Shown here in pieces: positions 8,596 through 58,607 of a DNA stretch of 64,000 nt (the stretch's first letter is position 1; every line of letters begins with the position of its first letter). The stretch is from assembly GCA_050273025.1 (NCBI GenBank), contig CP158635.1:7254001-7318000 (forward strand). Direction: 5' to 3'. A program made the translations under genes and the position numbers. The stretch is from Cenococcum geophilum (taxonomy: Eukaryota). The notes under the pieces are model-generated. The model was not told where the DNA came from. It saw only the letters and a program-made list of their open reading frames with translations, and made no database searches.

Positions 8596-8597
8596 TA

Positions 8598-13728: not shown

Positions 13729-16699
13729 TAGAGTAAGTGAGTTATAGCTCTAAGACAAGCTATAGCTCTTAAGGTAAGCCGCAGCTTATAAGATTATATA
13801 GGATCTTAGAGTCAAAGCTCTTTTATATACCTTTAGCGTCATAATTACCTTCCCCTAGCTATATAATTAGTTTTTATAAAGAAGTAATAGCTAAATAGCT
13901 TATATACGTATATCTTTCCTTTTAAATTACATTATTATTATAGAGTAATATTGGCGGGTTTAAGCTATATCTTAAAAGATTACGTAGGATCTAAGAGCTA
14001 CTGCTATATCTTTTAGGTAAGCTATAGCTCTTAATATAAGCTAGAGCTTTTAGAGCAACTAAAGCCTTATAGAAAGAGAATCGCGTATAATTAATAAGCC
14101 GTAACTTTTAGACGAGCCGTAGCTCTAAAAGACAATCGCCTATAATTAGGTCTTAATAGCCCTTAGGCTGACAGCCGGAGAGTCTCTAGGTTAGGCCGTA
14201 GCCCTAAGGCGAGCTCTAGCTCTAAGGTGAGCCGTAGCTTTTAAGGTAAGCTATAGCTTATAAGATTATATAGGATTTTAAAGCCGAAGCTCTTAATATA
14301 AGCTAGAGCTCTTAGAGCAACTAAAGCCTTATAAAAAGATAATCGCGTATAATCTTTAAGCTATAGCTCTTAAGGTAAGCCGTAGCTTAATAAAAGACAA
14401 CTACCTATAGTTTAGTCTTAGAAGCCCTTAGGCTAACAGCTAAAGAGTCTCTAGGTTAGGCCGTAGCCCTTAAATAAGCTATAGCTCTAAGGCAAGCCGT
14501 AGCTCTAGGAGATAATTGCCTACGATTTAGCCTTAGTAGCTTTATAGCTAATAGCTAGAAAGTTTCCAGAATAAGCCCTAGCCTTTAAGCAATTATAAAC
14601 AATCTAAGAGCTGTAGCTCTTAAAGTAAGTAGTAGCTTATAAAACTACCTATAATCTTAAAGCCGAAGCTCTTTATATCTCTTTTAAGGACGTTTAACCT
14701 TCTAAGCTTTATTAGTAGGACCTCTATAGTAAGTAAACCGTAGTTGGCCTAGAGAGTATTACTAATTTCCTCTAGGAGGTAATCGCGTCTAATCTAGTCT
14801 TCCTTCTCTAATCTGTATTCTACAACCATTATTAGCGGACGCGATCCTAAATATCTGCTAGTATACTTACTTATTATAGTAAACTAATTAGCCTAGGTAA
14901 AAGAGAAAGTATTAAATTTTCCTTTTTTTCTCCTAATTTATATTTACTAACCATAATATACAGATGCAATTTACTAGGCGTCTGCTAGTATAGCTGCTCT
15001 ATAGTATACGCGATTGTTTTAGGTAAGGTAGAGAACCTAATCTATATTTTAATAAACCTTTATATACGGATGTAATCTATTAGGCGTCTACTAGTGTACC
15101 TACTATATTATAGTAAATGTAATTATCTTAGGTAAAAACAGAGAATTTTAAAATTACTTAAGGGCGAAGCCCTTAGCTTACTATAGGCTACTACCCGTAA
15201 GGGTATAGGATCGGTTTAAATATAAAATATATTACTAGGGTATATAGTAGAAAGTAGGTAAGCCGAGTATAAGTTATAAGGAGAGTTGATAGAAGAGGAC
15301 GATATAGTAAAGAGTATAGTAATAGCCTTGTATGGAGACAAACTAATAAGAAGAGAAAGGGCTGTAAGCCTAAGGTGCTTATAAGGAGGTACTAAGCCTA
15401 GCCTTCGGCTAGGCCTTAGCTACCCCTAAGTGGCCCTTAGGCGATGCACCCAAGTAAGGGTTAAAATAACCCTTATACTAAGGCGTTAAAGTATATCTTT
15501 AATACTAAGTGGGCCAAGTTCCTAAATTATATTATAACGCCTATAAATATAGTTATAGACCTAGTACAGGTATAGATAATTTAAGAGTAGCTAGAGTTAG
15601 AGAATTATTAGAATATTTAAGTGTCTCTAGGCTTTTCTAATTTCTATAGGCGCTTTATTTATAACTACTTAGATATTACCTAGTACCTATCTAACTATAT
15701 TATAAAAGCCTTTTAAGATCTAGCCTAGTAAGTAAAAAGCTTAAAAGTAAAGAGGAAGAAAACTAAAAAGGGATTAACTAAATAGTATAGACTATAGATA
15801 TGGCCTGGAAATGTTTAAAAGGCCTTTTAGAAACTATATATAAAGTTTATAAAAGCTCTATTACTATAATATTTTAGCCTAAATTAGCTATTAATAATAT
15901 TTACTAATATATTAAATTTTACCCCTATTAGTACCCTATTATAACCTAATATAAATCTAAATACTACCTAGCTCTACTAAAGACTAGTGGTATTTTATAA
16001 TAGAAAATTTTAGAGGCCTAAAGTTAAGTATTATACCTTTAATAAGAAACTATTAGCTACAGTTAATTGTTTTAAATAATGGCGATAGTATCTCAAGTAC
16101 GCGAGCTATACTACTTATATACTCTTAAATTATTATAATTAATACTACTTTATAACTATAAAGGAGCTTATATATTAATAGGCTAAATAGGTAAAAAAGC
16201 TTATGCGATTAAATTTTAAGATTAAATATAAACTAAGGGGAAATGACCCTATTAATAGACCGTTATAATGGTTAGACTATACTAAAGGCTCTAAAACAGG
16301 AGAAGGAAAACAGATAATAAATATCTTACTCCCTATATTATAGAATAAGCTTTAGGAATAGAATACTTAAGTATTTCATTAGGATTTTTTTGGGCGGCCG
16401 AAAATTAGGGTCTGCAAAACCTGCGTAAGTCGCGATTCTGGCGATTTGCGGCGACTTGCGGCGACTTGCGGCGATTTACTACAGCTTGTAACTCGCGTAA
16501 AGCCGAACGTCTTACCCCACTAAAACGATACAGCTATATACACAACTAGCTTCTCCTACTCTCCTCCCCTTATATAATTTATAAGAAGTTAAAATTTATT
16601 CTTATAATAAAAGCTTACCTTATAGTTACTATAATCTACTATAGTTAGCCGCTATAACTAGCTACTATAACTAATAAATAGGAAGTATAACCGTAGGGG

Positions 16700-17590
16700 T
16701 AGGCTAGTAGACCTCTCTTATTAAATACAAAATTGCCGTATATTACCAGGCACACTACCTAGTTCTTTAAGTGGTAAGTTAGTATACTTCTATTATTAAG
16801 TATAAAATTGCCGTATATTGCCTAGTATATTACCCAGTTCCTTAAGCGGCAAATTACTATACTTTAGTTATTAGGTATAAAATTACTATATATTACCTAG
16901 CATATTACCTAGTTCCTTAAGCCGTAAGCTAATAGACTTTTATTACTAAATATAAAACTGCTGTATATTACCTAGTATATTACCTAGTTCTTTAAGCGGT
17001 AAGCTAGTAAACTTCTATTACTAAGCATAAAGTTACTGTATATTGCTAAGTATATTACCTAATTCTCCAAATTATAAGCTGGCAGGCGTTGCCTATTAGT
17101 AAAGTATTCTAATATATTAGCTTATATATTACCCTATTCCTATATTATAAGCTAGTAGACTTATTAATAGAGCACCACAATATATTGCCTAGCGTATTAC
17201 TTAGGTCCTTAAATAGCAAACTAGTAGTTATCGCTTATTAATAAAGTACTATAATATATCCAGTCGCTTATTGCCTAATTCCTTAAATAGTAAGATAGTA
17301 AGCTTCTTTTACTAATAAAAGAATTGCGGTATATTACTAATATATCGCCCTATTTTATAAAAAATAACTTAATATACCTTTTATTAACCGTAAGACTACA
17401 GTATATTGCTAAGAAATATTACTTACTTTACTAGAAAAAAACCCCTAGTATATGCCTTCTATTAGCCATAAGACTGCGGTATATTGCCTATTATATTGCC
17501 TAATTCTTAAAACAATAGCTGGTATACTTCTTCTACTAAATAAGACTTTGCGGTAAATTGCTTAGCACACCGCCTAATTTTACGCTAAAA
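16700..17590. repeat. 75-bp tandem array, copy 1 (~12 units, degenerating rightward)
   Basis: AATTGCCGTATATT-like anchor at 16731, 16806, 16881, 16956 and 17031. Confidence 0.92.
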
Positions 17591-20500
17591 TATTAAAAAT
17601 ACCTCGCTAGAGCACTTCCATTAGCTACTCCTTTAAACTCCTCAGCTTATTTATATTAACGTCTAGTATCTTATCTACAGCGGTCTTTTTAAACTTATTG
17701 TTACGGACGCTTTAAGTACGATGTTACGACTACTAGGAGAGGAGTTGGAAGAAGCTAGTTGGTTAATTTAGGTACGGTTTAGGATAGAGCTAATAGAGCT
17801 ATATAATGAGGAATGGTAACTAAGGTCACGTGGGGTGATCTATATAATCTGTGGGATCTATATAATCTATAATAGAGTAGATAGAGCATACGTATATTAC
17901 GTATAAGAAGGATTTTATAGGAGTACGGTTGTGTATTTAAGGACCCTTAGTCCCTACCTAGATAGTTCCTTCCTTGTAGTAATTCTTAGAATATAATTAG
18001 AGTTAATTTATTAGGTAACCACTCCACTAGTTGTTATTACATTGTTAACTTTTATACTTGCATTTCCTATATACCTAGCCTATTAATGAGCCCACCGTAG
18101 TTCTTGCTATAAGGTTCCGTTATATAATTACTACTATGGTTATGGTATTAATATAAGAAGTCGAATAACATGCCACTAAAAGCAGCTACTACGACGCTAT
18201 TAATGATAGCAACTACTTTAAGATTAGGTAACGACACCAGTATGGCAGACACTGACTTATAGTAACCTGTAACGGTTGGATAACTATAAAAGATAGTTAA
18301 CCAGTTAATAGAAAATAATGTAGCGTTAGAAAATAGGATTAACGGGATAGGCGCAGTAAAGGTTAAGTTACTATTGATTAAAAGGTACTTAGAAGAGAGA
18401 TTAAAGCTTAAAGAATTCCTTACGTAAATGCACTTTAAGGTTATGTAAGAGGGAGCTAAGCTAGCAACACCTATGGATCAAATAGTATACGCAGGATTGT
18501 TCTTAATAGGAAGGGCACTTAAATAGTTTAAGCCTTACCTTACAGAGATACAAGCGAACGGCATAACAACTACTAACTAAGAGGTACGGTTTATATTCTT
18601 AAGCTAGAATGGATTTATAGAGCGACTTATATAGATATTTAGAGACCTAGAGGCAGTAACTATGGCGGAAAGAAAACTCTAAGACATTATATAACGGACC
18701 TTAGTAATTAAGTATATAACGTAGTTCCAGACGTTAGTAATATAAGTAGAGTGGAATAATAGGGCGCTTATAGTATAGTATAAATAGGGACTTAAGGCTA
18801 AAGTCTAGGACGCGATTATCTTAATAGAAGATACGGATACCCTAAGGGAACTAATAGATTAGGTAATTAAGATTAATAATTAGATCTACTAAAGGGAATA
18901 GGCTAAGAAGAGCTAGGATAGAGTTTTATAGTTATATAAGGCGCAGAGTACGCAACAACAAAAACTAAGTTAAAAACTATAGTATAGCGCAGAGCTAATA
19001 GACCTAAGTGGTACTAAAGAAGCCTATAAGAGATGGAGTAAAAAACTATAGAAACCCAGAGGATAAGAATTAAGTAATTAAGGGTCTAGGGAGCAGAGGC
19101 TAAATTAGGGATCTTAGTAGCAGAAGATGTTTAGGCGGACTCCATAGCAAGAAAAATAGTTTAAAGAAGGAGCTTATATAAATTGCAGAAAACAGGGTTA
19201 TTATATTAGAGACTATAGAAGTAGGTAGAGTTACTATATAGTAAAAGGCATAAGACTAGTAGACAATATATACGTATAGAGGGATAATAATATACTACAA
19301 GGAACAAAAGAATGTTTAATTAGAAGTTTTGCGTTTTGTTATAATAACGTATACCGAATTTATAGGGATGCTAAGTATGGCGTAAGCTATTAGCTATAGG
19401 AGCTAGCACCTATAGGATATAGAGGAACTAATAAACTAGCTCGCAGATTGGATATTAAGGACGATAATTTTGATATAGGCGAAGCATTTTGTAACGATAA
19501 GGTAATAAAGGCAGCTTACTAGGAGCATATAAACCTAAGAGATATTATAATAGAAGTAGAGGATAATTCCACTATAGAATAGGGAATATTAGTAGGGATT
19601 AAAACCCCACTAGATACAATGTTTATCGCTTTATAAGATATAAGAGAAGTAGGATAGTAAATCACTTCGGCACTTAATAAAGGCAAAAGGCCATAGACTT
19701 AAGATTCTTATAGTAAGATAAGAGACGACCAAGATTCTTAAGATAAGATGAGGTAAGCTTAAGGACCTATAATGGACGATAACCAATAGAGCAGAGTAAT
19801 GGCTTAGTTTAGTAATATATAAATAAGCTTAGGACGAAGTTTCCTAAAGGTATAAGACTCTTAAGATAAGATAAGTGAGATTTAAGACTCTTAAGACGAG
19901 ATAAGAATACTAAGTAAGCCTAGTTAAACTAAGGCAGGAGCTAAGCTTAAGTTAGAAGCAAGCTCAGGATTAAAGAATTTAAGGGATTAAGAATTTGGAG
20001 TATAAATTAGGACACCTATAAGTAAGAGGCAAGGAGCTTCTTTATAGATTAGAGAATCTATAGTATAAACAACAATTAGACTAGGAGACAAATATATAAA
20101 CTTAGAAGACTTACTAGTAGAACACAGTATTTAGACTAAAGATTAAAAAGTTAATACTAAGATTAAGAAGTATAAAGACTTTAAGGATTAGAGCGCGAGA
20201 TATAAACTAAAAGAAACTATAGAAGAATTTAGACAGAGAATTATCGCATAGTAAGAACAGAAACTAGATAAGAGATCTAGCATATTAGGACGTATAAAGG
20301 ATAGAGCGCTAGTATAAAGAATTACTAATAGGCTAAGAGCAGGCACACTAAGAGCTAAGTAGCTTGCTAAACTAAAAGATAAAGAGAATCTAGGGATCCC
20401 TACTAGGTTTAAAGAACGATATATAAAGAGCTGTTATAATATAGTAATAAGAAGATACTTCCTTATAGATAAGCCGTATATACTCCAGTAGCTATACTAA

Positions 20501-23500
20501 AAGTGGTATAGGTAAAGGCATAATAATAAGTAGGAAGATTTCTATATATAGTTGGATAAATAAGTTATCTAGGACTACCTAATTATAGAAAAGGCTATAA
20601 CGCATATTAAAGGAGTCTTAATTATAACATTAAAGGATCTAGAGGAACGATTAGAGGACTAAAGAAGTAAAAGACGTATCTTAGTACCTACAAACGAAGT
20701 TATAACGTTTAGATTAGCACGATAAAGGTTTAAACTTAAGAACGAAGACGAGTTAAGAGTTAACCCAAAGCACCTAGTATACTACACGTTATTATAGATC
20801 GCGTGCGTAGATAATATATATAAAATGCATAAGAATCTAAAGGAAAAAAATTGGAAATACTTTATAAGGATATACTAGATAATAGACGAGTAATAGTATA
20901 GGAATGCCAAATATATATATAGATGGCATCCAGCAGAGGTCTAAGAGGAAGGAAGTTTAGTACTTTAACTAGGAAGATTTCTTACGGAAGAATGCTTAGA
21001 CGGATAATAGTAGTAGGAATGCCTAAAAAATATATGTCTATAATATATTAAAGATAAAAAGCGAACTAGGTATTGGCTAAAGAGTGAGCTAAGTATATAA
21101 GGATTAAGCAGCTAATAGTTAGGAAAAGTAGAGGCCTATAGGACTAAAGGGAGCTAGTAGTAGAGCCTTAGACCCTTAAAGGAATTTAAGGATAATACCT
21201 AAATTTACAAGTTAAATAGTAAGATTAGTAGTTCGAAGTATTAATAGATAGTAGAATAATAAGGAACTATATCTTACTAGCAGTAGTTAAGAGAATGGGA
21301 TTACCTTATAGGCAAAAGGAGGAACCTTATTTATTAGTAACGATTTTAGGAGATCTAATAGCTTATAGAGGAGGCATTATTAATCTTAAAATAGGACCTA
21401 TTTAGATAACTATTAAAGGGAGACAAATTAAAATGTCTTTTAATATCCTACTATTGGGATAGGATAAGGCAGTATTAGGGATGCCTTAGTTATAGGAATA
21501 TAATCTAAAGATTAATTAGATTACAGGTTAGGTTGATATTAAAGATACTTAATAACATAAGATGCGATAATAAGCTAAGTTAGTATAGTACTAAGTCAGA
21601 GTAATATACGAAGAGACTAAGTAAGGCTTAAGTTATGTACTAAAGAGATACTATAAGTACGGTAAGAAACTATAGTTACTAGAAAGTAAAAAGCTGTTAG
21701 AGTATATAGTATGGGATTATAAGATAGAGTTAGAACTAGGAATAAGTCTAAAGTTCTTTCCAATCTATAAGCTTACTGAAGAAAAAGGTAGAGTATTAAA
21801 AGAGTTTATTTAGGAAAACTTATAAAAGGGATATATTAGACTATTATAGTTATTAGTAGGTTATCTAGTACTATTTATACTAAAGAAGAATGGTAAACTA
21901 AGGCTATATATCGACTATAGACAGTTAAACAGCATCACTAAGAAGGATAGGTATCCTTTACCCTTAATTAGCGAGATTTAAGATAGGATAGGTAACGCGT
22001 AAATCTTTACGAAGATAGATTTAAGATAGGCGTACTATTAGATTAGAATTAAGGAAGGCGACAAATAAAAAGCAGCCTTTAGATTAAAGGAAGGACTGTA
22101 TAAACTATTAGTTATATAATTTAGGCTTATAAACGTACTAGCAATATTCTAGAAGCGTATTAACAATGTATTAGGAGAATACTTAGATGAATTTGTTATA
22201 GTATACCTTAATAATATTATTATCTACTTAATAACTAAGGAAGAACACAGGGAACACGTTAAATGGGTTTTAAAGAGACTATAAGAAGAATAGATGCTAG
22301 TAGCAATTAAAAAATACAAGTTCTTTATAAGGAAGACCAATTTTATTAGATTTATTATTAAACTAGGCCAACTTAGTATAGATCTAAAGAAGATTAAGGC
22401 TATAGTAAATTGGCAAGAACTAGAAAACGTTACGCAGTTAAGATTATTTCTAGGGTTTTGTAATTACTACAGAAGGTTTATAGCGTAGTAGTTAAAGGAT
22501 ATTAAACTATTTACGCAATTAATAAAGAAAGAAGAACTATAGGCATAGGGAGAGGAATAAAGAGAACTCTTTAAGAAAGTTAAAGAGTTGTTTACCTAGG
22601 AGCCAGTTCTTAAGATCTACTAATTAGGACTAGAAACGGTTATAGAGACGGATGTATTAGACTATATACTAGGGGCATACTTTATATAAAAATATTAAGA
22701 TGGATAGTACCTAGTAGCATATTATAGTTGAAAAATAATACTACTAGAGTTAAACTATAACATCTATAATAAGGAGTTATTAGGTATAGTTACAGCACTA
22801 AAGAAATAGAAAGCATTTTTGTAAGGTATAGAGAAACTATTTATAGTTAAGATGGACTATAAGAACCTAATAGGATTCTTAATAATAAAGGAACTTAACT
22901 AAAGATAGGTTAGATAGGCAGAGATGCTTACAGAATACTATTTTAAAATTTAGTATACTAAGGGCACAGATAATACGAGAGTAGATGCTATAAGTTATAA
23001 GGCTAAACTATAAAATAACGAGAAGCCATTAGGGGCTTTACTGCGAAAAGATATAGATGGATTAATTAGGTATAATTATCCGAAAATTGCAGTAACTTAG
23101 GAAAACAACGAGTTAGAAAGAGTCTACGAGACACTAGAAAGCTTTTAGGTATAAAGAATTCTAGAAGTATAGCTAGAGGATCTATAGATGGATATATATA
23201 AAAACTAAAAAGCGAAGTATATCCTAAGAAGCATAGCAGAGTAATTTATGGAAGAATTCTATAAGGGATTAACTTAAGGACATAATGGAGCTATAGGCTT
23301 AGTGTTAAGACTCTAAGAGGAGTATATTATTAATAGAATCTAGAAAATAGCTAGGAAGGTTATAAAGGAGTGTCTAAATTACTAAAGGAATAAACTAATA
23401 AGGCATAAGCTATATAGAGGGCTATAACCTATTAAAATACTAAAGAGACTATAGGAGGTTATATTATGGGACTTTATTATTAAGTTGCTAAAGTTAAGAG

Positions 23501-31005: not shown

Positions 31006-31409
31006 TCTAAGGAACTAGATCTTAAGGAGGGAGATAAAGTATAGCTACTATATAAAAATTTTAAGAGTTAATAACTAAGTAAGAAGTTAGACTACGTTAG
31101 ACTAGGACCTTTTAAAATTACGTAGAGGGTTTTACTAGTTACGTTTAAGTTAAACCTACTAGCTAAAATAAAGATTTACCCTATATAGCATATCGTAATG
31201 CTAGAGCCAGTATATAGGAATGTTAAGCTACTAGTTTATAAAGTAGACATGTATAGAGGATAGGAAGAAGACAAATAGTAAGTTTTAAAGATTGTTAGTT
31301 ATAAGGACATTAATAATAAAATATAGTATAAGGTTAAGTAGATAGGCTATACTAAGACTACCTAGGAGCTATTAGAAAATTTAAAGAATACTATAGGAAA
31401 GGTACAGGA

Positions 31410-40390: not shown

Positions 40391-40427
40391 TAAAAACACA
40401 TCGCTACTATAATCTATAACATTTGTA

Positions 40428-49400: not shown

Positions 49401-50807
49401 AAAATCTAAAAAGAGCTAATGTTAGTCTAATTTAAGATGTACTCTATATAACTATATACTTATACCTTTACGTAATAGGCGTTATAGCCTATATCTCCTT
49501 AGCTTAGGTTATATTATCCTTAAGCGCACCCTTATAAGGTATCTTAGATTGTATTAGTTTTTATAATTTTATTAAAGAAAGCTTTTATAGATATAGAGTT
49601 TAATTATTATATAGGGTCTAAGCTAATTAGGGATATAAAGCAGTTTTGCTCTAAGGAGTATTGCGATTATCCTTGCCGTGCTTTATATCGTTGGGATTAT
49701 CCGTAGGCTAAATAACTAGATTATTACGGCTGTTTTTAGCAGCTTGCTGTAGTTTGCTGTAGTTTACCTATAAATGCCTCTAGTAGGTTACTCCCTTTTA
49801 TAATTATATTTCTTTAGACTTAATAAATTTAAAATGCCGCTATATGTTAATAAGATAGATAAAGCATCTCTTATTCTCTTTGTCTTTATTAATAAACTTA
49901 ATATCTAAGTGCTTGCGGATCGGCTTAGGCGTAATCTTTTACCGTTTCTTAAGTGCGGCCTTAGTGTGTAAATACTGGTAGTTAGAGTATTGGCAATACT
50001 AGGAGGGTTTATACCCTACTTATTTAGTAATTAGTATAGTACTTTTATAATTAAATGCTTGGCTATAATTATTGGTATATAGATAGCTAGATGTTATTAA
50101 AGGGACTTATAAACCGTACTCTTAAGTAGAAATTCTACTTTACTCCTATTATATAGTATATACTACTAAAACACAGCTTATAATGGCCCTCGCTAGGTAA
50201 TATAAACCTCCTTATTAGTAACCACGTTAAGCTAGGTAATTTTATCCTTATCTAAGATAAAACCTACTAATACTACAACCTCTGGAAATAGCGAGAAACT
50301 AATTTCTTTAACTATTAGAGTTTCTGTATTACCTTTTAAATTTTATAGACTATATAAGGCTCTATAGTGCTTTAAGTAATTAGGTTTATTCTTTAAAACT
50401 AAAAGGTTATATTTTCTAGTATAAACGACTTATTTAGTAATATAAAACTATATAATTCGGAGACTGGCTTAGGAGTAAATATATATACTAGCGTTATTAT
50501 AGATTTAAATTAGGTTTAACTCTAACTTCTAAGTTTTAACTTTATATTATTTTGCCGTTTAGTGGTATTAGTTCTTTAGGATAATATAAAAGGAATAATA
50601 GCCTATCTAAACTAGATGTTTAAAGTACGTTCCTTCTTAGGTTAGTCGCTAAGAACCTTCTAAATAAACTAATTACTTTATCTTTAGTAGTATAAAACGT
50701 AGATTTTTTAAGCCTGGCCTCTTATATATTATCTAAGATTGTTTCTTAATTTCCTTAAGGCGATAAGTATTAATATCCTATCCCTTCCAGATATTTAGGT
50801 TATTTAT
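40428..50807 (-). pseudogene. SNF2-family helicase, paralog 2; interrupted by Gypsy 41418-48332; lacks the motif VI segment
   Basis: Collinear with paralog 1: (GG)VFA(DGM)GI(G)KTV at ~49140-49180, RIL.DEF(H) at ~48600, same intron positions, shared upstream region to ~51080. Confidence 0.85.
41418..48332 (-). mobile_element. Full-length Gypsy family B, copy 2; LTRs 41418-41604 and 48146-48332; TSD CCTAC
   Basis: Reverse complement of 24090-31005. TSD at 41413-41417 and 48333-48337. Confidence 0.97.
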
Positions 50808-51749
50808 TATAATGCGTAAAGATACTAGGACGGAATAAAGGAGTAGAGCGTTGCTGTATAAAAGTAAAAGAATTTAGTTAGTGTTTAGTAAAGGCGTAAG
50901 TCTAAAGTAGGTAGGTGAGATAAACTAATTATAAGGGTTAATCTACTAGGCAGATTGCCGTGGTTTTTGGGGGTAAGTTGTAGCTTAAAGTAGTAATTGG
51001 CAGTTAAACTAATTAATTAACTAATTAATATCCCGTAGAGGTGCCGTGCGAGAGTTAGTTAAGGTAGTAGAGGTAAAGAGTATAAAGTAAAGTGAATCAG
51101 CCTAAGGTAAATACTCTCGCAGTAATAATAGCTAAATAGTTTTTGCATTTATATACTTATTATAACTACTTAAATAGGAAAAGGCTAACCGGAATAGTTG
51201 GCGTTAAGTAGTAAGGTTAAGGTAAAGCTAGTTTATACTAATGGAATATAACGCGCGCGCGTTAAAGGGCAATTTACTATAGCAGATTACTGCTAAATAC
51301 GCTTCCTCTAGTTATAGAAAATATTCTTTATAAATAACTAGTATAATAGGCGGAGTTAGAAGTACCTAAGAATGAAGGCTAATACCCTTAGGACGTTTTG
51401 CCTGCCTAGGATCGATATTTTAGCTTAATTAAGGCCGCTTTAATATACCCTTTTAAGTAGGGCTCCTAGTAAATAATTAAGACTCTAAATAGTATTAAAT
51501 TTAAAGCTATAAGGACTGCTACTATATACCACGTATATTTATAACTATAAAAACAATTATATCCTTAAAGGCTTTAAGCGTTTATTATATTGTATACTTT
51601 AAAAGTCCCATATTCTAAACTAGCATAATTATTAGTATATCTGCCTATAACTCCTCTATCTCTAGGTTAACTCTTACATCCTAGATAATATTAAAAAATT
51701 TAGGGAAATCTAAAAGACTTATCTACCCTTCCGCTAAGTTAGTTTGAAG

Positions 51750-52480
51750 TAGACTAGTACCTAAATCTATATAAATTATAAACTGTGGTATATTCTTTAG
51801 ATCTTAATATATATAGATTATAAGACCCTAAACGTTATATTTATTAATATATTTAGGTAAAAGAGATTAATATACGTCCTAAGGCTCTATATAAGGGTAC
51901 CCTATAGTAGAATTTATAGCTCTATACCAAAGTCCTAATTTAGCACTAGCCCGGCTAGCTTTCTTGCGTATATTTAACTACGTGCGAATAAGGAGATATT
52001 AAGCCACTTCCTTAGTCTACCTAACTAGAGCATTACTAGACTCTGGGATTTAATTAATAATTTTAGCTATAATTTTACTTTAAATGGCGTAATTTATTTA
52101 GTCTTAGAAGCGTATAAATATTATATTACTTTAATTTATAATATCCTTAACTGCCCTTTTAATCTTATATAAACGAGCGCTGCTAATATTAAACCCAAAT
52201 ATAATCTGCTTATCCTTCCTAGGAGTTTTACTAGTAGACTTATACTATGCCTTATCTATAGTATATATACCATCTAATTGTGTTGTTATTATACTAGGTA
52301 TGTATAGTATTAGTAAGGGCCGCGGGATTAAAGGTTTATAAATATTTAGTGGTTATAAATTAATTGTAATAGGTACTGTAGGATATAATACTGCTTTATA
52401 TATTATTAGCGCTTAGGATAATATACTACTTAGTATATTTAACTTATAATTTAAAAGGAGCAAGCTATTATAGTTATTAG
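51750..52480 (-). pseudogene. Unassigned degenerate ORF, divergent from the Plavaka gene
   Basis: Protein-like frame A(W)YKST.KTP.KD.QIIFGF.I..ARLYKI.RAV.DI...(W)T.EVA(Q)YLLIRT. Family not recognised. Confidence 0.35.
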
Positions 52481-52563
52481 GATAGCTAGCAGATTACCAC
52501 AGATTATAGCTATTAAATTAGTTATATAATCTACCGTAATATAAACCGACTTATCTAATCTTA

Positions 52564-55500
52564 ATAACAACGTAAGGAGCCGCATTTGTTGCTATTATAA
52601 TAGGCTTAATAAATCGCCAGTGCCCTAAATGTAAGTATACAATTTCTACCATGGGTAGATTAGCGCGATATAAGCTATACTGTAAAGCTATAGGTATAGA
52701 CTATCTTAACTAACAGGATAATATCTATCCTATAATTTAGGCTTAAGTAGATATATATAAAGATGACGGGTTTACTATAGAATAATGGGTATATAACCTT
52801 ATAGTAACTAACATCGCTATTAATAATACTTTATTAACTATTATAGGAGATATCGGCTTAATATTAGTAGAGGAGCTAAGCTATATAGCACCCGTAGAAC
52901 AACTAACTAGTACCAAAACGCACAGTTATATAGCAATAAGCCTCTCTACCTTAGATATTTATTACGCCTAAACTTATTATAAAGTAACTAGCCGCTATAT
53001 AGGAACCCCGCTTAGCCACATAGAGGGAAACTCTAATTAGTAGTTTACTATAGATTGCGACTACCTGCTAAGGCCTAGCTAGCTAGTAAATGGAATAAAT
53101 AAAGGCAATAATATGTTTTACCCTTTTATAAGCTCTGTAGAATGGGCGTAAGTTGCCTAGTAGGTATATAATAGTACGTTAATAAAAGAAATAGACGCGT
53201 GGTTATAAGACCCCTATATTAAAAATATAAGGGACGGATATATATTATGCTAAAATACAAAAAAAGTTAAGATAAAACTACGTTTTATTTTTAAAGGTGT
53301 AAGTAATAAGAGCTGGTAAATTATAGAACTTAATATATACGGCAAAAACCTAAAGATATACCACTATAATATACTTAGCGTGGTAGCCTTCCTAATTAGT
53401 TATTTCCTATTTAAAGATAATATAGTTTATTCTCCTATTTATTAATTAAATGTAAAAGGTAATAGAGTATATAACGAGGTATATACGGCTAACCGTTAGT
53501 AAAAGATATAAGATTAATTACCTAATAGTGCGACGGCTATTATAGTAATACCTAGTAGCGACTAAACTAAGCTAACTATACTATTTAGAGATAAAAAGGC
53601 GTATCTAGTTTATATTATAATACTTAATATCTTATTAAAGACTTAACGTGCAGCTAGTAGGCTAGTAATACTTCTGCTAGGTTATATACCTATAAACTTA
53701 CTAAGTAACTAGATAAACAAACTGGATATATACTATTAAGTAATAAGTATTATGTTTAAACGTAAGTATTTGCCTTAGTAGTGTATTGGTACTTAAGTTA
53801 ATATAAAAGCTAGCCCTTAAACGCGCTACTAGGCGCGGTATACTAATATAATACGCGGATAGGTTTATCCGGTAATGTTACTTTATACTTACTAGGTTTA
53901 TAGCAGATTATAAAAAGTAGGTTATATTAATAGAAGTAAAATTAGGGTAATACTATATAATATGTTACGTACCGCCTTATAAACGAGGTAACCTACTAAG
54001 TACTATATTTGGCAAATAGCTATAACGGACGCATAAATTAACTATTAAGCAACTTAAATAATAGTAGAACTTGCAGTTAAATCACAGCGACCCTAAATAT
54101 ATTAGGCCAATTTAAAATTTTGCCTAGTCCTATTATATAGTAGATATACATACTATAATGGCCCCTAATTTATTATACTAGCTATATAAAGGCATTACGG
54201 AGCATTTAATAAGCTAGCTTTAGGCATTACTACTTAATATTAAGAAAGAGAAAGGAAGGGTTCTAATAACTAATTAGAGTAGTGTAAAAACTCTATTATC
54301 TACTAAGGATAGGGTAAAACGTCTTTTAACTATATAATTTGCTAAGGTTAAACCCTTTAAGGATATAATTAGGTGGGATAACTTTGTAGAGTTAAGCTAA
54401 TGGACTAGAAAGATATATAAGTCCTTCTTTAATAGATTATACTAGTTATGGTACCGTTGCTATATAGGCATAAGGGGGCAATGCTGTTTATTTATGCTAT
54501 AGTTAACTTTATATTATTAGCCGAATATAAATTATATAATAAAGATACGATTAAATATCTTAAAGCTGTATTATATTAAATGGATAAAACTAAAGAGGTA
54601 TTTTTACTATACCGACCTAATAATAAAAACCTACCTAATTTTAATATACCTAAACTTTATGCAATTTCCTACTATCCGGAGATAATTTATATATTTAGCG
54701 CCCTAATAGGAACTATAATAGAGCACGGCAAAAGGGCATATATTTTTAGAAGAATTTTTATTAAAGATTAAATAAGCGTAAAGGGTATAAAAAGTAAATG
54801 ATTTATCTTAATATGGAATTAATAAACACTATAGTAATACAAGAAATGGAGATATAGGAAAATATAAGGCCAATATTAGCAGCTAATACTATAGAAGATT
54901 TATATATTGCATTATTATTAGGCATAGTTAACCTAATAGACGAGCCGTATAGATGGGATTGCTGCTAGTTAACTAACTAAATGTTTTTAATGCGCGGAAT
55001 AAACCCAAATTTATAGCGTAGAGCCTACGAAATTTAGACTAGGCTAGGTATTAATAAATTTATTATAAAACTAGCTTTATTTATACGGGAATGTTATAAG
55101 CGAGTTAATAGTATATAAGTAACGGATTTAGACATTAAGCGCCTTAAAATGGATGCAGCCTAGGTATAAGATTTACCTATTAGTATTTATTACTCTATAA
55201 TATGCCATACCTAACGCGGTAAAGACTTCTATAATCTTAATCAACTATATAAAGTATAGGCACGCTATAATCCAGTCTAGATGCTGACTACTGCCCTATA
55301 AAGGGACTAAGTTCTTATATAAGAATATAAGAACGCACTAGATAGAATAAAGGGAACGCGGGCTGCTTATTTAGAATTACTGGTATTAGTATAGGACTTA
55401 AATTATATAGATAAAAATAGTAGATACTAAGTATACTATAGAGTACTTTTTAAGCTATTCCGTCCATATAATAGAGGTAAGGTAAATCCTTTTAATAGGA

Positions 55501-55740
55501 TAATTAAAGTGGAACGATTTCCTATAAATATAGCGCAAAATAGATAAAACCTAGACGGCTACTAAATATATAACATTTCCTATATTAAGAGACCTATATA
55601 ACTAATACCAACTTTACTAAATAAAAGAAAAACGTTTTAAATAAACTCATATATAGATTAGGATATATACAATTAATTCTATAATAACAATTTTCTTTAG
55701 ATTAATAGCATACGTGTAAATAAGTTTATAAAGAAATAAA
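52564..55740 (+). pseudogene. Plavaka transposase with N-terminal C2H2-like zinc finger, RIP-inactivated
   Basis: QCPKCK.TISTMGRLAR(H) at ~52615. Signature RVYNEVYTA(D)R(WWE).QD(Q)LP(DG)ATAI.VI..SD(Q)TKLT.LF(G)DKKAY(P)VYI.I.NI at 53460-53630. Intron GTAAGT at 53762. LPNFNIPKL(H)AISYYPE.I..F.A at ~54630. Confidence 0.85.
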
Positions 55741-56799
55741 AATCTAAAACTAAGCTTCTAATTAAATTATAGGAGGCCTTAGAACGAAAATAAAAACGGC
55801 TAATATAATTAATAGGGAATCCAGTATATTTAATCCCTAGGAATTTGGGCAAATTAGCTATAAAATAGGGTAAATTGGCTATAAGATAAGGCAAGATAGA
55901 GAGAAGTTAAGAAAGCTGTTAGTTGGCTTAAAGGCGGAGGCAGCGTGTCCAATATATAGGTAAATTAAGTAGTGGAGGGGCTCGTTAGAGTAAGAGGCTG
56001 GCTAGCTATACGTATTTTAGCGAATTTTGTATTAGCAAAGTAGTATAATAACCCCCCCTCTTTTGCCTTTCTCTTCCGATTTACCGCACGTTTTTCTTTA
56101 ATAGGCTTTATTTTTATAATAATCTCTACCTTTATAGTTTAAGCTTCTTCTATCTATTCGTAATTGAGTATATTAACTCTATTAATATTTAGGGCTAAAT
56201 TAATAGCTAATCTTTATAACTGTCGCTTCTTAATATATAGAATAGCCTTATGCTACTCCTCTATAAAGGCTCTCCTTAAGTTTTAAATATAAAATAACTT
56301 TATTAGCTTATTGCCTAAGCTAATACGCTTTAAAGGAGACTTTAGGTAAAAAAGGCGGAAATAGCGCGATTAAACTAACTTTACGTCTTAGGTGTATTTA
56401 TAGGCTAATTAGGTATAAATAGAAGCTTTGGAGTACGTCTTAATAAGGGGGGAGAATAAGGATAACCATTAAGCACTTACTGCTTAGGTGGTGTTAACCT
56501 ACTAAACCGCTAGAAAATGTTAGCTATATCTATATAAATTGGTTAAATTCTTATATTTTTATAGGTAGTTATAACGCTTTTGCCCGTAAAGATTAGCTTT
56601 AGTACTTACTTATTAGTAGGAATTCTTAATATTAGGTAGCTAACGGCAAGATAATACGGTAATTTGCCGTAATTTGCCCTAAATAGGCTGTGATAGGCCT
56701 AAGCTCCCTAGCAGAATATTAAAACCTACCCCTTTACTCCTCTATTTCGTTAACTATATCTATACTAGTAAATATACGATTTAAAAGTGTTATACTTTA

Positions 56800-58500
56800 T
56801 CTTTGTATCTTTATAGACTTCTTTAACTTTTATATTAGTTATACTAAAGGTTTACCAACCTCTACTATCCTAAAAGAATATAACTATAGTTTCTAAAAAA
56901 AAAATAAGGTATAGATTACCCTTTATATAACTGCTTAAAATACTAATATATACTTACGACTAAGGGAAAGGTAAAAGAAATAGCACTATTAGTGTAAGAA
57001 GAATCTAGGAACGTATAAGCGAACGGTAGTCGGGCTAAAGTACTATAAATTGTATATGCCCGGTAGCATATAGCTAACTATAGTAGACAGCTATATATGG
57101 CGACGGAGTATCTAGAAATAGTATCCTAAAACGTTAATTAGATATAAATAGCGGTTTTAAAGAAGATAGATACCTAGTGCCTTAGGGTAAAGCGCACCGC
57201 CGATAACTCCAGTAGAGTTTAGATAAAGAATCTCTAGATCTATATATACGGAATTTAACCGTAGTATTTATTATATAAACTCTATTCCTTTATACCTGTA
57301 ATACTTTAGCAGCGGTTATAAGTCCTAAATTGCCCTAATAAGCAGCTTTAACGCTACCGTCCCTTTACTAAAGGGCTTATTTCTAGTGGCGAAGATAATA
57401 CTATAGCTAAGCCAGTTTACGCGGCGTTTATACATAGTAATAAACCGTAAAAGGCTTAATATAGTATAGATATAGTCAGAAGATAGTAAGGATTAGGTTG
57501 TAGTAGTAAACTAAAACTAAAACCTACGGATAAACTAGTATTAAAAACTGCCGTGTGCTTTTTTCTAATGTTTATAATATTAGGCAACGCTCCTAAAGGT
57601 ATTCCTCTTATACTATAGCTAGAAGGGAGTATAATAACTCTGGAAAAGATAATAGACTTAGTATAGGATAAAGTAGTAGAGTATAATATGGTTTTTAAAG
57701 GCGATAGTCCTAGCAAGGCTATATATAAACCGTCGCCATTAATATATCGCATGGTAAGCTACCTTTTATCGCTTCTATATATACTAACATAAAATAGATA
57801 TATAATACCCTAAGCGTGTTTTGGTATAAACTATTAAAACACATCTAATATTGCGTAAAGGCTAAGTACTTATTTAGAAAACTCTCTAAGTAAGAAATAA
57901 TTACTAAAGTAGAAGAGCTACTCTATATAGATAACTTTTAATACTCTAAAATAGTATATATAGCTATACTACCTTAGTACCCTCCTAACTATTCATAGGG
58001 CGAGTAATCCTACTTTATAGTATTAGTTATTATAACAGGTCTCTCTAAGTTATTCTTTAAAGGAAAGTGGTAATTTAGGTTTAGTATAGATACGCAGCAC
58101 TTTCTGCCTAATTAACCCTAGGGCAGTTATGCTAATTTATATAATAATCCGCCACGCTATTAATAAATAGAAAAGTAGTAGCTTTATTTAATAAAAGTTT
58201 AAAGCAGGTGCCAATCTTTATAGTAATTTATTCTTTCTTTACTCTTATTCTAACTACCTAGGCTACGCCGTAACTAATTTTAATATTAGCCGCCTGGGGA
58301 TAAATAAAGGCTATATAGGTAGATTAGTTAATAGAGCGCTAGAACTAGATTTTAGGGCTTTTGTAATAGGGCGTCTTAAAGAGACTTTAAGTAACTATAT
58401 ATAGTAATAACCCTGCTATATAAGTAATTCCAAATTTATTTAAATATAATTTTAATAATCTTTTTAACCTAGACTCTAACTATAATATAGGATTTAATAA
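56800..58500 (+). pseudogene. Second ORF downstream of the transposase, DUF6532-like C-terminus (tentative)
   Basis: Intron GTAAGC...CTAAC..TAG at ~57753-57798. Frame FC.I.PRAVMLI(CT).IRHAI(DEW)KS(G)SF....F.AGANLY resembles the DUF6532 pattern from memory. Boundaries approximate. Confidence 0.35.
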
Positions 58501-58607
58501 GCAGCGCTTTAATATACTTTTATTGGTATATAACTACTTATAATAATAGTTTTAGACTAATGCTTATATCTAGGTACTTAACGCGTCCCTTTCCTTAAAC
58601 CTAGATA

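What the first reader, a model, noticed from the sequence alone, without database searches (positions are those of the whole stretch)
16377..58600. Candidate giant cargo-carrying Plavaka element with two SNF2 chromatin-remodeller-like genes
Seen: removing the nested Gypsy elements and the MITE (all with clean TSDs) leaves ~20 kb of contiguous, uniformly RIP-mutated sequence. It starts at a TIR-like end with subterminal repeats that truncates a Gypsy pol, and holds two intron-bearing SNF2 genes, repeat arrays, unknown ORFs, a Plavaka transposase and a DUF6532-like ORF. Known: Plavaka is a CMC/CACTA-related fungal transposase family described near TET/JBP genes, and RIP targets repeated DNA. Inference: this is one multicopy mobile unit carrying chromatin-acting cargo, Starship-like in size and concept but DDE-driven. 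I know of no description of a Plavaka+SNF2 element, but cannot search for one.
Basis: partly seen in the sequence, partly recalled or inferred. Interest (0 to 1): 0.9.

Follow-up and report, generated by a model that had tools for sequence, protein, structure and literature searches.

The report
Dead giant Plavaka transposon with SNF2 genes
This is a mutation-killed copy of a roughly 20-kb cut-and-paste transposon of the Plavaka kind that seems to carry two old, diverged copies of a chromatin-motor-like (SNF2-type) gene, a layout resembling a fungal repeat family described in 2010 but not then recognised as a transposon.

Summary
Three nested Gypsy elements have clean 5-bp duplications. A hairpin insertion, two 75-bp arrays, heavy RIP and a Plavaka transposase domain (Pfam E 1.2e-17) are all present. 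Removing the nested elements leaves 20,103 bp.

The two SNF2 genes are two direct copies of one module: a 75-bp array plus a minus-strand SNF2-like gene. They are invisible to Pfam and PDB searches. A RIP-aware motif chain supports them (0 chains in 100 simulated windows). So does a phmmer hit (E 2.2e-5) to a 1310-aa protein with a Helicase_C domain. DUF6532 and introns were not confirmed.

I found the missing right end. TCCTAATA|TT at 58738-58747 mirrors TT|CATTAGGA at 16375-16384. This fits the published PlavakaB termini (CATCA..TGATG) and 2-3 bp duplications.

Contigs from three strains and a root metagenome show that 39.0-58.3 kb is present in dozens of diverged copies, at flat depth across the SNF2, spacer and transposase parts.

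The single-unit reading is therefore favoured (about 0.6) but not proven.

It is not undescribed. The 26-kb X3X3R8 repeat (2010) has the same architecture, and giant cargo Plavaka elements are known in red algae. This scan had already noted Plavaka+SNF2 in other genomes.

The parts
16375..16376 (.). left target-site duplication TT (candidate)
   Evidence: Read directly. Identical to the 2 bases after the right terminus.
16377..16694 (+). 5' terminus CATTAGGA plus a 318-bp leader. The leader holds GGCGACTTGC x3.5 (16440-16474) and a CpG-rich island with little RIP (16401-16550).
   Evidence: It has no homolog elsewhere in the window, even in purine/pyrimidine space. Homology to Gypsy pol fades at about 16305-16376.
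16695..17698 (+). 75-bp tandem array 1, lying downstream of the 3' end of SNF2-like gene 1
   Evidence: Self-BLAST and TRF. 70.6% identical to array 2 over 1017 bp.
17699..32597 (+). nested Gypsy C (not part of the element). It contains nested Gypsy A at 24090-31005.
   Evidence: LTR pairs, TSDs CTTAT and TCTAA, and Pfam RVT_1/RNase H/Integrase_H2C2 hits. Module 2 shows the empty site.
32598..37071 (-). SNF2-like gene, module 1 (dead). Motif II is at about 33917, III at about 33821, V at about 32809, VI at about 32710. The N-terminal half and upstream region run up to 37071.
   Evidence: RIP-aware colinear motif chain, with 0 chains in 100 simulated windows. phmmer gave 19 hits, including P0016 at E 2.2e-5. 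Motifs align in register with P0016. Pfam and PDB found nothing on the window itself.
34203..34644 (.). nested GC-rich hairpin (MITE-like) insertion, not part of the element
   Evidence: The arms are about 86-89% complementary. It is absent at the equivalent site of module 2. Its TSD was not resolved.
37072..39492 (.). 2.4-kb spacer of unknown content between module 1 and array 2. At least 39001-39492 is multicopy.
   Evidence: No homology to any other part of the window. No Pfam or PDB hit. Depth at place 39066 equals that of the rest of the element.
39493..40504 (+). 75-bp tandem array 2
   Evidence: Multicopy in 4 of 4 runs.
40505..41417 (-). SNF2-like gene, module 2, 3' part. Motif V is at about 40585. 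Motif VI is lost through a 127-bp deletion relative to module 1.
   Evidence: 78% identical to 32766-33647, or 92.8% in purine/pyrimidine space. Motif V found; deletion seen.
41418..48332 (-). nested Gypsy B (not part of the element)
   Evidence: LTRs and TSD CCTAC. Contigs of 3 of 4 runs join 41412 to 48333, so other copies lack it.
48333..51162 (-). SNF2-like gene, module 2, 5' part. Motif I is at about 49156 and Ia at about 49093.
   Evidence: 73.6% identical to 34645-37071 over 2467 bp, or 90.2% in purine/pyrimidine space. Motifs found. Multicopy.
51163..53343 (.). 2.2-kb region of unknown content upstream of the transposase domain. It holds an internal terminus-like GT|TATTAGGAT at 52475.
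   Evidence: Multicopy with no step in depth at 52475, at a bin size of 667 bp.
53344..54215 (+). Plavaka transposase domain (dead, split over two frames)
   Evidence: Pfam PF18759: E 1.2e-17 for profile positions 42-168, E 5e-9 for 195-316, and E 0.024 for 258-323.
54216..58737 (.). 4.5-kb 3' region of unknown content, still multicopy. The claimed DUF6532-like ORF would lie here.
   Evidence: Pfam found 0 families. Summed depth in X1 is 3.1-7.3k against about 80-90 per single contig.
58738..58745 (+). candidate 3' terminus TCCTAATA. It is the reverse complement of the left CATTAGGA apart from one G>A transition.
   Evidence: It lies where the family's depth gives way to a far more abundant neighbour. 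Loose ends occur at 58733 (behind, X6 only) and at 58762, 58829 and 58834 (before).
58746..58747 (.). right target-site duplication TT (candidate)

Best explanation
The stretch 16377-58745 is one RIP-killed copy of a large Plavaka-type DNA transposon. It is about 20.1 kb without the four later insertions. Its termini and duplication look like the PlavakaB lineage.

Layout, left to right:
- terminus CATTAGGA with a short leader;
- [75-bp array + minus-strand SNF2-like gene];
- a 2.4-kb spacer;
- a second, partly deleted [array + SNF2-like gene];
- 2.2 kb of unknown sequence;
- the plus-strand Plavaka DDE transposase;
- 4.5 kb of unknown sequence;
- terminus TCCTAATA.
The whole is flanked by a TT duplication inside an older Gypsy pol.

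Shown:
- the transposase domain;
- the two-module structure;
- the multicopy state of the right 60% of the element;
- the nested insertions;
- RIP.

Inferred:
- Both modules and the transposase moved as one unit. The transposase would cut at the two termini and make a 2-bp duplication.
- The two SNF2-like genes were an old internal tandem duplication, already present when the family amplified.
- Their product acted on the element's own chromatin or DNA, possibly through the 75-bp arrays. It might open or de-silence the element, or help repair after excision.

Nothing here is functional now.
For: 1. Transposase. PF18759 scores 64.7 bits (cut-off 26.3), E 1.2e-17, on the + strand.

2. Termini. 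TT|CATTAGGA at 16375-16384 and TCCTAATA|TT at 58738-58747 are RIP equivalents of CATCAGGA/TCCTGATG. [quoted passage not shown]

3. Independent boundaries. Homology to Gypsy pol fades just before 16377. On the right, the family's depth ends between 58343 and about 58830, where loose ends of a much more abundant neighbour begin.

4. Multicopy state. 57,041 contig pieces of X1 were laid on 39001-59000 at 80% likeness or more. All 30 of 30 bins are covered in 4 of 4 runs. Summed depth in X1 is 5.1-7.9k across 48.3-57.0 kb (SNF2 5' part, spacer, transposase, 3' region). Single contigs have depth of about 78-94. X5, X8 and X6 show the same flat profile.

5. Module junction in another copy. A contig with 21 differences spans 51053-51265, in X1 and in X8. 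The junction between module 2 and the right part therefore exists in at least one other copy.

6. Leader only at the outer end. The leader at 16377-16694 has no counterpart before array 2. DNA left of array 2 (place 39066) is as deep as the rest. Array 2 is therefore not an element end.

7. Age of the module split.
- The modules differ by 407 transitions and 171 transversions over about 2.4 kb.
- Differences between this copy and other family copies are 3083 transitions to 209 transversions (X1; this count includes Gypsy B).
- The module split therefore predates the amplification.

8. Literature. X3X3R8 of S. nodorum is a 26-kb repeat. It consists of a full helicase repeat, a second incomplete copy 10-20% divergent, and a reversed third part (PMC3017866, passages read).
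Against: - The terminal 8-mer YATTAGGA is not rare. It occurs 13 times in the window against 14.3 expected. 3'-type sites followed by TT occur 8 times against 3.6 expected. The inverted repeat does not extend beyond 8 bp.
- A second 5'-like site, GT|TATTAGGAT, lies at 52475, 870 bp upstream of the transposase domain. A second 3'-like site, TTCTAATG|TT, lies at 57563.
- The 81 bp to the right of the candidate end could not be shown to be the resumed Gypsy. Its alignment score lies within the shuffled range, and tblastx found no integrase at 51-64 kb.
The multicopy state of the leader and of module 1 rests only on short ENA ORF fragments that lie closer to module 1.
- Contigs are 200-480 bp long. 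None links an SNF2 module physically to the transposase.
- Summed contig depth is not a copy number, as the tool itself warns. It is about 1.6 times higher over 39-41 kb than over 48-57 kb.
- The leader holds a CpG-rich island with little RIP, which is odd for a repeated terminus.
- The DDE triad and the C2C/H3-4H motifs were not tested.
Confidence: 0.6

Rival explanations
1. A short autonomous Plavaka element, roughly 52475-58745 (6.3 kb) or 52475-57570, sits next to an unrelated repeat family made of array+SNF2-like modules. The SNF2 genes are neighbours, not cargo.
For: - An internal terminus-like site, GT|TATTAGGAT, lies at 52475. It shares the 9-mer YATTAGGAT with the 16377 end and lies 870 bp upstream of the transposase domain.
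- Alternative 3'-like sites exist at 57563 and 58738.
- A Plavaka element without cargo could be this small. That is my recollection; no size was read in PMC12730594.
Against: - The flanking dinucleotides do not match: GT on the left, TT on the right.
- There is no step in summed depth at 52475 in any of the 4 runs. In X1 the bin 51674-52340 gives 6061 and the bin 52341-53007 gives 6998.
- The motif is common by chance.
- X3X3R8 shows that helicase modules and a third part recur together.
Confidence: 0.18
2. These are two separate elements of related families lying head to tail. One is a transposase-less or truncated element (16377 to about 39.4 kb). The other is a full one (about 37-39.5 kb to 58745). 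Each carries one SNF2-like gene.
For: - The two modules are direct repeats with old divergence: 7% transversions.
- The regions that follow each module (37072-39492 and 51163-53343) are unrelated.
- RIP-degenerate terminus-like sites exist in the spacer at 37676, 38730, 38329 and 39137.
Against: - The leader and terminus of the 16377 type are absent before array 2.
- DNA just left of array 2 is multicopy at the family's depth, so array 2 is not an end.
- The spacer sites do not match CATTAGGA beyond the degenerate pattern.
- The published X3X3R8 unit also holds two tandem helicase repeats as a recurring pattern.
Confidence: 0.12
3. This is a segmentally duplicated endogenous gene cluster (helicase genes and neighbours) that became repeated and was then hit by RIP, as Hane and Oliver read X3X3R8. 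The Plavaka transposase would be a chance insertion or a domesticated neighbour.
For: - Published interpretation of the architecturally similar X3X3R8, some copies of which carry gene models thought to be functional (PMC3017866).
- No flank continuity could be proven here.
Against: - Dozens of diverged copies occur in each of three strains, and the transposase part is as deep as the helicase part.
- The termini and TSD fit PlavakaB.
- The insertion lies inside a Gypsy pol.
- Another copy lacks Gypsy B, as expected for dispersed copies.
Confidence: 0.08

Closest known systems
X3X3R8 repeat family of Stagonospora (Parastagonospora) nodorum SN15 (Hane & Oliver 2010, PMC3017866; passages read)
   Same: - A large (26-kb) RIP-affected repeat.
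- It is made of a full Rad5/SNF2-like helicase repeat, a second incomplete and diverged copy in tandem, and a third part in reverse orientation.
- It is multicopy.
   Different: - It was interpreted as an endogenous gene cluster, not a transposon. No transposase, termini or duplications were reported.
- It also holds a Rad6/ubiquitin-conjugating gene. I did not find one here with a RIP-aware motif scan.
- Sequence homology to this window could not be tested, because no X3X3R8 or SNOG sequence was at hand.
PlavakaB DNA transposons of fungi (CMCT/EnSpm-related; PMC12730594, passages read)
   Same: - Plavaka transposase domain.
- CATCA..TGATG-type termini, here in RIP-mutated form.
- A 2-bp duplication.
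- Some members carry an accessory chromatin/DNA-modifying gene (TET/JBP).
   Different: - The cargo here is SNF2-like, not TET/JBP. The paper mentions SNF2 0 times.
- The host shows ascomycete-type RIP. The reconstructed families in that paper are mainly from Agaricomycotina, with the PE type also in Pezizomycetes.
- Lineage A or B was not tested by phylogeny.
Giant Plavaka elements of red algae (Bostrychia moritziana, 17.4-19.1 kb; bioRxiv 10.1101/2025.02.11.637652, passages read)
   Same: - Size class.
- A DDE Plavaka transposase plus several accessory genes with chromatin or DNA-modification flavour.
- Tandem repeat arrays next to an accessory gene, proposed there as its binding sites.
   Different: - The accessory genes differ: PAG1-3, which are a 6mA methylase+SET protein and a ParB+2OG oxygenase.
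- The preprint's only mention of SNF2 concerns host gene families.
- A different kingdom, and no RIP.
Starship elements of Pezizomycotina (recalled, no call)
   Same: A large cargo-carrying mobile element in ascomycetes.
   Different: Starships move by a tyrosine recombinase 'captain' (DUF3435). This element has a DDE Plavaka transposase, short inverted termini and a 2-bp duplication. The likeness is in size only.

Membership tests
Plavaka DNA transposons (PF18759; PlavakaB lineage) | Transposase with the Plavaka domain | tested here: met
   PF18759 scores 64.7 bits against a cut-off of 26.3, E 1.2e-17. A second piece scores 36.2 bits.
Plavaka DNA transposons (PF18759; PlavakaB lineage) | Termini 5'-CATCA..TGATG-3' (PMC12730594) | tested here: inconclusive
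   CATTAGGA at 16377 and TCCTAATA at 58738 fit after allowing RIP transitions. However, the 8-mer is common in this DNA: 13 seen, 14.3 expected.
Plavaka DNA transposons (PF18759; PlavakaB lineage) | Target-site duplication of 2-3 bp | tested here: inconclusive
   TT is found on both sides of the candidate ends. This is one copy only, and no empty site was seen.
Plavaka DNA transposons (PF18759; PlavakaB lineage) | [quoted passage not shown] | not tested
   The gene is riddled with stops and split over two frames. No reference transposase could be fetched: 0 of 442 candidates scored.
Plavaka DNA transposons (PF18759; PlavakaB lineage) | Dispersed multicopy family | tested here: met
   Tens of thousands of diverged contig pieces cover all 30 bins of 39001-59000 in 4 of 4 runs. 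One joint shows a copy without Gypsy B. Dispersal to unrelated flanks was not shown.
SNF2 family ATPases (SNF2-rel_dom PF00176 + Helicase_C PF00271) | Ordered helicase motifs I, Ia, II, III, IV, V, VI with SNF2-type spacing | tested here: met
   RIP-aware scan. Motifs II, III, V and VI are colinear in module 1, with 0 such chains in 100 simulated windows. Motifs I, Ia and V are found in module 2. The motif patterns were recalled, not taken from a library.
SNF2 family ATPases (SNF2-rel_dom PF00176 + Helicase_C PF00271) | Significant match to the Pfam models | tested here: not met
   No families for any frame of the window's modules. The distant homolog P0016 passes Helicase_C (28.6 > 23.5 bits) but not SNF2-rel_dom (18.6 < 24.9 bits). 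The same scan also missed an obvious Copia, so it is insensitive on this DNA.
SNF2 family ATPases (SNF2-rel_dom PF00176 + Helicase_C PF00271) | Homology to a solved SNF2 structure | tested here: inconclusive
   The window frames and profile A1 gave 0 PDB hits. P0016 gave one weak hit, 9jao_C, an SNF2-family remodeller, at E 0.0068.
Rad5/Rad16 subfamily | RING finger between motifs III and IV (and HIRAN in Rad5); feature recalled | not tested
   By eye, the intact-looking fragment P0003 shows no cysteine-rich RING pattern across that interval. No formal test was run.
X3X3R8 repeat family | Two tandem helicase repeats (the second incomplete and diverged) plus a reversed third part | tested here: met
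   Architecture, compared with the description.
X3X3R8 repeat family | Sequence homology to the X3/R8 consensus or the SNOG genes | not testable with these tools
   No sequence of that family could be fetched. The supplements were not opened.
Starship | Tyrosine-recombinase captain (DUF3435) at one end | tested here: inconclusive
   No such Pfam hit in the six-frame scans of 16001-30000, 32596-39500 and 48333-64000. The stretches 30001-32595 and 39501-48332 were not scanned, and the scan is insensitive here.
Giant Plavaka of red algae | PAG1-3 accessory cassette (methylase+SET, ParB+2OG oxygenase) | tested here: inconclusive
   No methyltransferase, SET, ParB or 2OG Pfam hit. The scan is insensitive on this DNA.

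The most novel reading that the evidence does not exclude
A lineage of giant PlavakaB transposons in RIP-competent ascomycetes carries, as a fixed part of the element, an anciently duplicated pair of divergent SNF2-like ATPases. Each gene is followed by its own 75-bp array. The ATPases would be recruited to the arrays to remodel the element's own chromatin, either for access by the transposase or to escape silencing. This would be a transposon-encoded chromatin motor, parallel to the TET/JBP and PAG cargo of other Plavaka elements.

The long-known X3X3R8 'gene cluster' would be the same thing. The internal terminus-like site at 52475 would then be a scar of how a short Plavaka element captured the modules, by using a distant upstream end (macrotransposition).
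Probability: 0.3. Interest if true: 0.75.

Novelty: new variant of a known kind. Interest (0 to 1): 0.55.

Why it matters
Transposons that bring their own chromatin or DNA-modifying enzymes are rare. Known cases include TET/JBP in fungal Plavaka/KDZ elements, VANC in VANDAL and PAG genes in red-algal Plavaka. They bear on how mobile DNA evades silencing.

An SNF2-type motor as standing cargo of a DDE transposon appeared in none of my literature searches. If it holds, a repeat family filed since 2010 as an endogenous helicase gene cluster would be re-read as a giant transposon. That would explain why SNF2/Rad5-like pseudogenes are so abundant in RIP-rich ascomycete genomes.

This copy is dead, so its value is as anatomy: candidate termini, a duplication and the order of parts. 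These make the question testable on complete assemblies and on intact relatives.

Tried and rejected
SEARCHES THAT FOUND NOTHING
- Standard ORF listing: no ORF of 100 aa or more.
- No whole genome is held for this window.
- Pfam, six frames with X at stops. Only Gypsy domains and Plavaka were found. There were 0 families in 6 of 6 frames of 32596-39500. There were 0 in 13 of 13 shorter pieces at E<=10. There were 0 in 6 of 6 frames of 59901-64000, although a Copia integrase/RT is readable by eye. There were 0 in 3 of 3 frames of 57000-58100. The lack of Pfam hits is therefore not evidence of absence on this DNA.
- PDB phmmer with three minus frames of 32596-39500: 0 hits at E<=5. Profile A1 (19 sequences): 0 hits.
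- The search for homologous proteins: SNF2 part, 0 of 1600 candidates. Plavaka part, 0 of 442. P0016 found only itself among 8000 candidates.
- Metagenome locus scans: for P0016, 26 pattern matches and none confirmed. For P0003, 46 pattern matches and none confirmed. The neighbours of intact relatives therefore stay unknown.
- Rfam and tRNA scans of the window: 0 hits.
- No note on this genome or on look-alike sequence in the scan's index.

READINGS I DROPPED
- A helicase motif-VI-like string at about 37370 and an 'SGTPK' string at about 37530 in the spacer, both seen by eye. They lie too close together and lack residues, and nothing supports them.
- Homology of the spacer 37072-39492 to 51163-64000 or to 1-16376: tblastx found none. 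In purine/pyrimidine space the scores are no better than shuffles. My first transition-tolerant local alignment was too permissive, since shuffles scored as high.
- An inverted partner of the left terminal 24-50 bases: none in the window.
- Resumed Gypsy integrase to the right of the element: tblastx found none. The 81-bp right flank aligns no better than shuffles.
- A Rad6/UBC-like gene, as in X3X3R8: no convincing RIP-aware motif hit.
- The hairpin MITE as a Plavaka-derived MITE. The TCCTAATA at 34651 belongs to the host module, because module 2 has it too.
- The reversed-sequence control in purine/pyrimidine BLAST was a poor control.

NOT REPEATED

Full report
WHAT THE WINDOW IS

The whole 64 kb is repeat DNA wrecked by repeat-induced point mutation (RIP).
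- No stop-free frame exceeds 138 codons.
- TA/AT is 1.4-2.0 and (CA+TG)/(AC+GT) is 0.37-0.78 in every segment.
- Two Gypsy copies of one family differ by 730 transitions and only 11 transversions.
- The C-to-T changes fall mostly at CpA, then CpG and CpT, and rarely at CpC. This is the ascomycete type of RIP.
- No whole genome is held for the window.

NESTED ELEMENTS

- Gypsy C, 17699-32597: 427-bp LTRs at 91.6% identity, TSD CTTAT.
- Gypsy A inside it, 24090-31005: 190-bp LTRs at 93%, TSD TCTAA.
- Gypsy B, 41418-48332: minus strand, 89% identical to A over 6.9 kb, TSD CCTAC.
- A GC-rich hairpin insertion at 34203-34644. I could not resolve its duplication.
- Pfam sees RT, RNase H and integrase zinc-binding (Integrase_H2C2) domains for the Gypsy elements.

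Taking these out of 16377-58745 (42,369 bp) leaves 20,103 bp.

THE UNEXPECTED STRUCTURE

The remaining DNA is not one string of different genes. It holds two direct copies of one module.
- Copy 1: array 16695-17697, then, after Gypsy C, 32593-33967, 34132-34202 and 34645-37071.
- Copy 2: array 39493-40504, then 40496-41416 and, after Gypsy B, 48335-48732 and 48739-51162.
- Identity is 70-78%. It rises to 88-93% when transitions are ignored.
- The copies differ by 407 transitions and 171 transversions over the longest block. They are therefore old paralogs, not a recent duplication.
- The stretches that follow each copy (37072-39492 and 51163-53343) are unrelated to each other and to anything else in the window.
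- The 318-bp leader at 16377-16694 has no counterpart before array 2.

ARE THE MODULES SNF2 GENES?

Ordinary searches say nothing.
- Pfam gave 0 families in all frames.
- PDB gave 0 hits.
- The word-indexed protein search gave 0 of 1600 candidates.
- The same Pfam procedure also missed a Copia integrase/RT that is readable by eye at 59.9-64 kb. It is therefore blind on this DNA.

I then scanned all six frames, allowing each T to have been C and each A to have been G. On the minus strand of copy 1 this gives a colinear chain:
- motif II at about 33917 (DKFY);
- motif III at about 33821 (AILGTLIEN, i.e. SGTPIEN);
- an 'IRRTL' block;
- motif V at about 32809 (LLLSLKAIIEGITL);
- motif VI at about 32710 (QFIYHIYRIS*, i.e. 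Q...R.HRIGQ).

The spacing is of SNF2 type. No such chain appeared in 100 simulated windows, both strands. Copy 2 keeps motifs I (about 49156), Ia (about 49093) and V (about 40585). It has lost motif VI through a 127-bp deletion. The motif patterns are recalled consensus patterns, not library models.

Independent support came from phmmer of 33111-34178 (minus strand, X at stops) against 1.84 billion representatives. It gave 19 hits.
- 18 hits are short ORF fragments of 40-275 aa at 40-83% identity. The five I looked up (P0001, P0002, P0003, P0005, P0016) are singleton clusters; the four short ones come from ENA contigs of about 0.8-1.2 kb.
- These fragments are other, variably mutated copies of the same gene. 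15 of 18 lie closer to copy 1, 1 closer to copy 2, and 2 tie. The query was copy 1, so this split is biased.
- The 19th hit is P0016, 1310 aa, E 2.2e-5. It passes Pfam Helicase_C (28.6 bits, cut-off 23.5). It falls short for SNF2-rel_dom (18.6 bits, cut-off 24.9).
- A pairwise alignment puts DKFY/DEVH, GTLIEN/GTPDNG and IRRTL/IRRAE in register.
- P0016's only PDB hit is an SNF2-family remodeller, at E 0.0068.

I conclude that the modules encode a divergent SNF2-like ATPase. Membership of the curated Pfam family is not shown on the window itself. Introns were not shown. One frame change in copy 1 is an indel, since copy 2 reads through it.

TRANSPOSASE AND ENDS

PF18759 (Plavaka) matches the plus strand at 53344-53709 (E 1.2e-17) and 53816-54196 (E 5e-9). 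It therefore lies on the strand opposite to the SNF2-like genes. It is the only transposase relic found in the window.

The left end reads TT|CATTAGGA. At 58738-58747 the sequence reads TCCTAATA|TT. This is the reverse complement of the left 8-mer apart from one G-to-A change, followed by the same TT. After allowing for RIP, the ends are CATCAGGA...TCCTGATG. The published PlavakaB ends are 5'-CATCA..TGATG-3' with 2-3 bp duplications (PMC12730594, passages read).

Caveats:
- YATTAGGA occurs 13 times in the window, against 14.3 expected.
- The inverted repeat stops at 8 bp.
- A 5'-like GT|TATTAGGAT lies at 52475, and a 3'-like TTCTAATG|TT lies at 57563.

The 16377/58745 pair is favoured for three reasons.
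- Its flanking TT dinucleotides are identical.
- The left end coincides with the point where Gypsy pol homology fades.
- The right end coincides with the end of the family's read depth (next section).

I could not show that the 81 bp to the right are the resumed Gypsy.

COPY NUMBER AND EXTENT

One run search and one lay of 39001-59000 at 80% likeness or more were allowed.
- All 30 bins are covered in all 4 runs: three strain runs and a root metagenome.
- 27,341 to 57,041 diverged contig pieces were laid per run.
- In X1, single contigs have depth of about 78-94, including two that are identical to the window.
- Summed depth in X1 is 9.6-11.7k over 39.0-41.0 kb, 5.1-7.9k over 48.3-57.0 kb and 3.1-4.8k over 57.0-58.3 kb.
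- By contrast it is 115-304k over Gypsy B and 166k beyond 58344.
- The other three runs show the same flat profile.

The tool warns that summed depth is not a copy number. I read it only as 'dozens of diverged copies, at a similar level across the SNF2 5' half, the spacer, the transposase and the 3' region'.

Further points from the same lay:
- Contigs in 3 of 4 runs join 41412 to 48333, so other copies lack Gypsy B.
- A contig with 21 differences spans 51053-51265 in two runs. The junction between module 2 and the right part therefore recurs.
- Place 39066, left of array 2, is as deep as the rest, so array 2 is not an element end.
- Loose ends 'before' 58762, 58829 and 58834 mark the start of the abundant right neighbour.
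- Variant places are 3083 transitions to 209 transversions in X1. Family copies therefore differ almost only by RIP, whereas the two modules differ by many transversions. The module duplication predates the amplification.

COMPARISON WITH WHAT IS KNOWN

A note from this scan on another genome pointed me to Hane & Oliver 2010. I read passages of it.
- Their X3X3R8 family of S. nodorum is a 26-kb pattern.
- It consists of a full Rad5/SNF2-like helicase repeat, a second incomplete copy 10-20% divergent, and a third part in reverse orientation.
- They interpreted it as an endogenous gene cluster.
- The architecture is the same as here. Sequence homology is untested. I found no Rad6/UBC relic.
- 'X3X3R8' occurs in no other paper of the library.

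Other comparators:
- Giant Plavaka elements (17-19 kb) with three accessory genes and adjacent tandem arrays are described in a red alga (bioRxiv 10.1101/2025.02.11.637652, passages read).
- Fungal PlavakaB elements with TET/JBP cargo are described in PMC12730594.

No paper found with 'Plavaka' (20 papers hold the term and 16 were listed; I read passages of two), with 'SNF2'+'EnSpm'+'transposase' (2 papers, both irrelevant), or with the Rad5/SNF2/RIP terms (40 papers hold the terms and 12 were listed; only Hane & Oliver is relevant) describes an SNF2-type gene as Plavaka cargo.

This scan has 8 earlier notes on Plavaka+SNF2 in other genomes. Some affirm the SNF2 part and two fail to find it. 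They are unchecked notes, and I use them as leads only.

HOW IT MOST LIKELY WORKED

Inferred: the transposase bound the CATCAGGA-type ends and perhaps the subterminal GGCGAYTTGC repeats. It excised the whole 20-kb unit and reinserted it with a 2-bp duplication.

Inferred, by analogy with TET/JBP, VANC and PAG cargo: the SNF2-like ATPases, each with a 75-bp array just downstream, acted on the element itself. They may have opened its chromatin or countered silencing, or assisted repair of the excision gap. The arrays are candidate binding platforms.

Shown: every gene here is dead, and the copy was later hit by three Gypsy insertions and a hairpin element.

VERDICT

DUF6532, introns and 'uniform' RIP are not confirmed.
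- The single-unit interpretation is the best reading, at about 0.6.
- The rivals are: a short Plavaka element beside an independent SNF2 repeat (0.18); two head-to-tail elements (0.12); and a duplicated endogenous cluster (0.08).
- It is a new variant of a known kind, giant cargo-bearing Plavaka. It is probably the transposon identity of an already published repeat family.

Noticed in passing
window 11298-15383: A roughly 4.1-kb element bounded by 150-170-bp direct repeats. They are 90% identical, or 98% ignoring transitions. It sits inside the RT of the host Gypsy, between 11278 and 15516. It has internal tandem repeats (12152-12716, 14019-14678) and GC-rich stretches with little RIP (11401-13100, GC up to 0.61). 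It looks like a small LTR-type non-autonomous element.
   Followed up: partly
window 16401-16550: A CpG-rich island (GC 0.52, 12 CpG per 100 bp) with little sign of RIP. It lies in the element's leader, between heavily mutated DNA on both sides. It is the only such island in the element outside the nested Gypsys, and it is unexplained.
   Followed up: partly
window 59900-64000, minus strand: A Copia-like integrase and RT can be read by eye in the translation. Pfam gave 0 hits with stops read as X. This shows how blind profile searches are on this DNA. Its left end, or that of another very abundant repeat, lies at about 58762-58834 according to the loose ends.
   Followed up: partly
window 34203-34644: A hairpin insertion with GC-rich arms that carry no visible RIP (GCGAGCGGCCCACC repeated). 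It is younger than the RIP episodes that killed its host gene, and its family is unknown.
   Followed up: partly
window 59136-59263: A short fragment similar to the region just upstream of the 3' LTR of Gypsy A/B (30526-30714), in reverse orientation.
   Followed up: no
window 39001-41001 versus 48339-57009: Summed contig depth is about 1.6 times higher over array 2 and the 3' part of SNF2-2 than over the rest of the element, in X1. Possible causes are cross-matching of module-1-type copies or extra solo modules.
   Followed up: no
window 51082-51239: Other copies replace or skip 118-156 bp here (joints in X1 and X8). This is right at the point where homology between the two modules ends (51132-51162).
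   Followed up: no
window 344-697 and 2794-3138: Short tandem repeat arrays (units of roughly 65-70 bp, 75-87% identity) in the less AT-rich left part of the window. Not examined.
   Followed up: no
run X6 (root metagenome), laid on window 39001-59000: A root metagenome holds 40,128 diverged contig pieces of this repeat family and of Gypsy B. The fungus or close relatives are therefore present in that kind of sample.
   Followed up: partly
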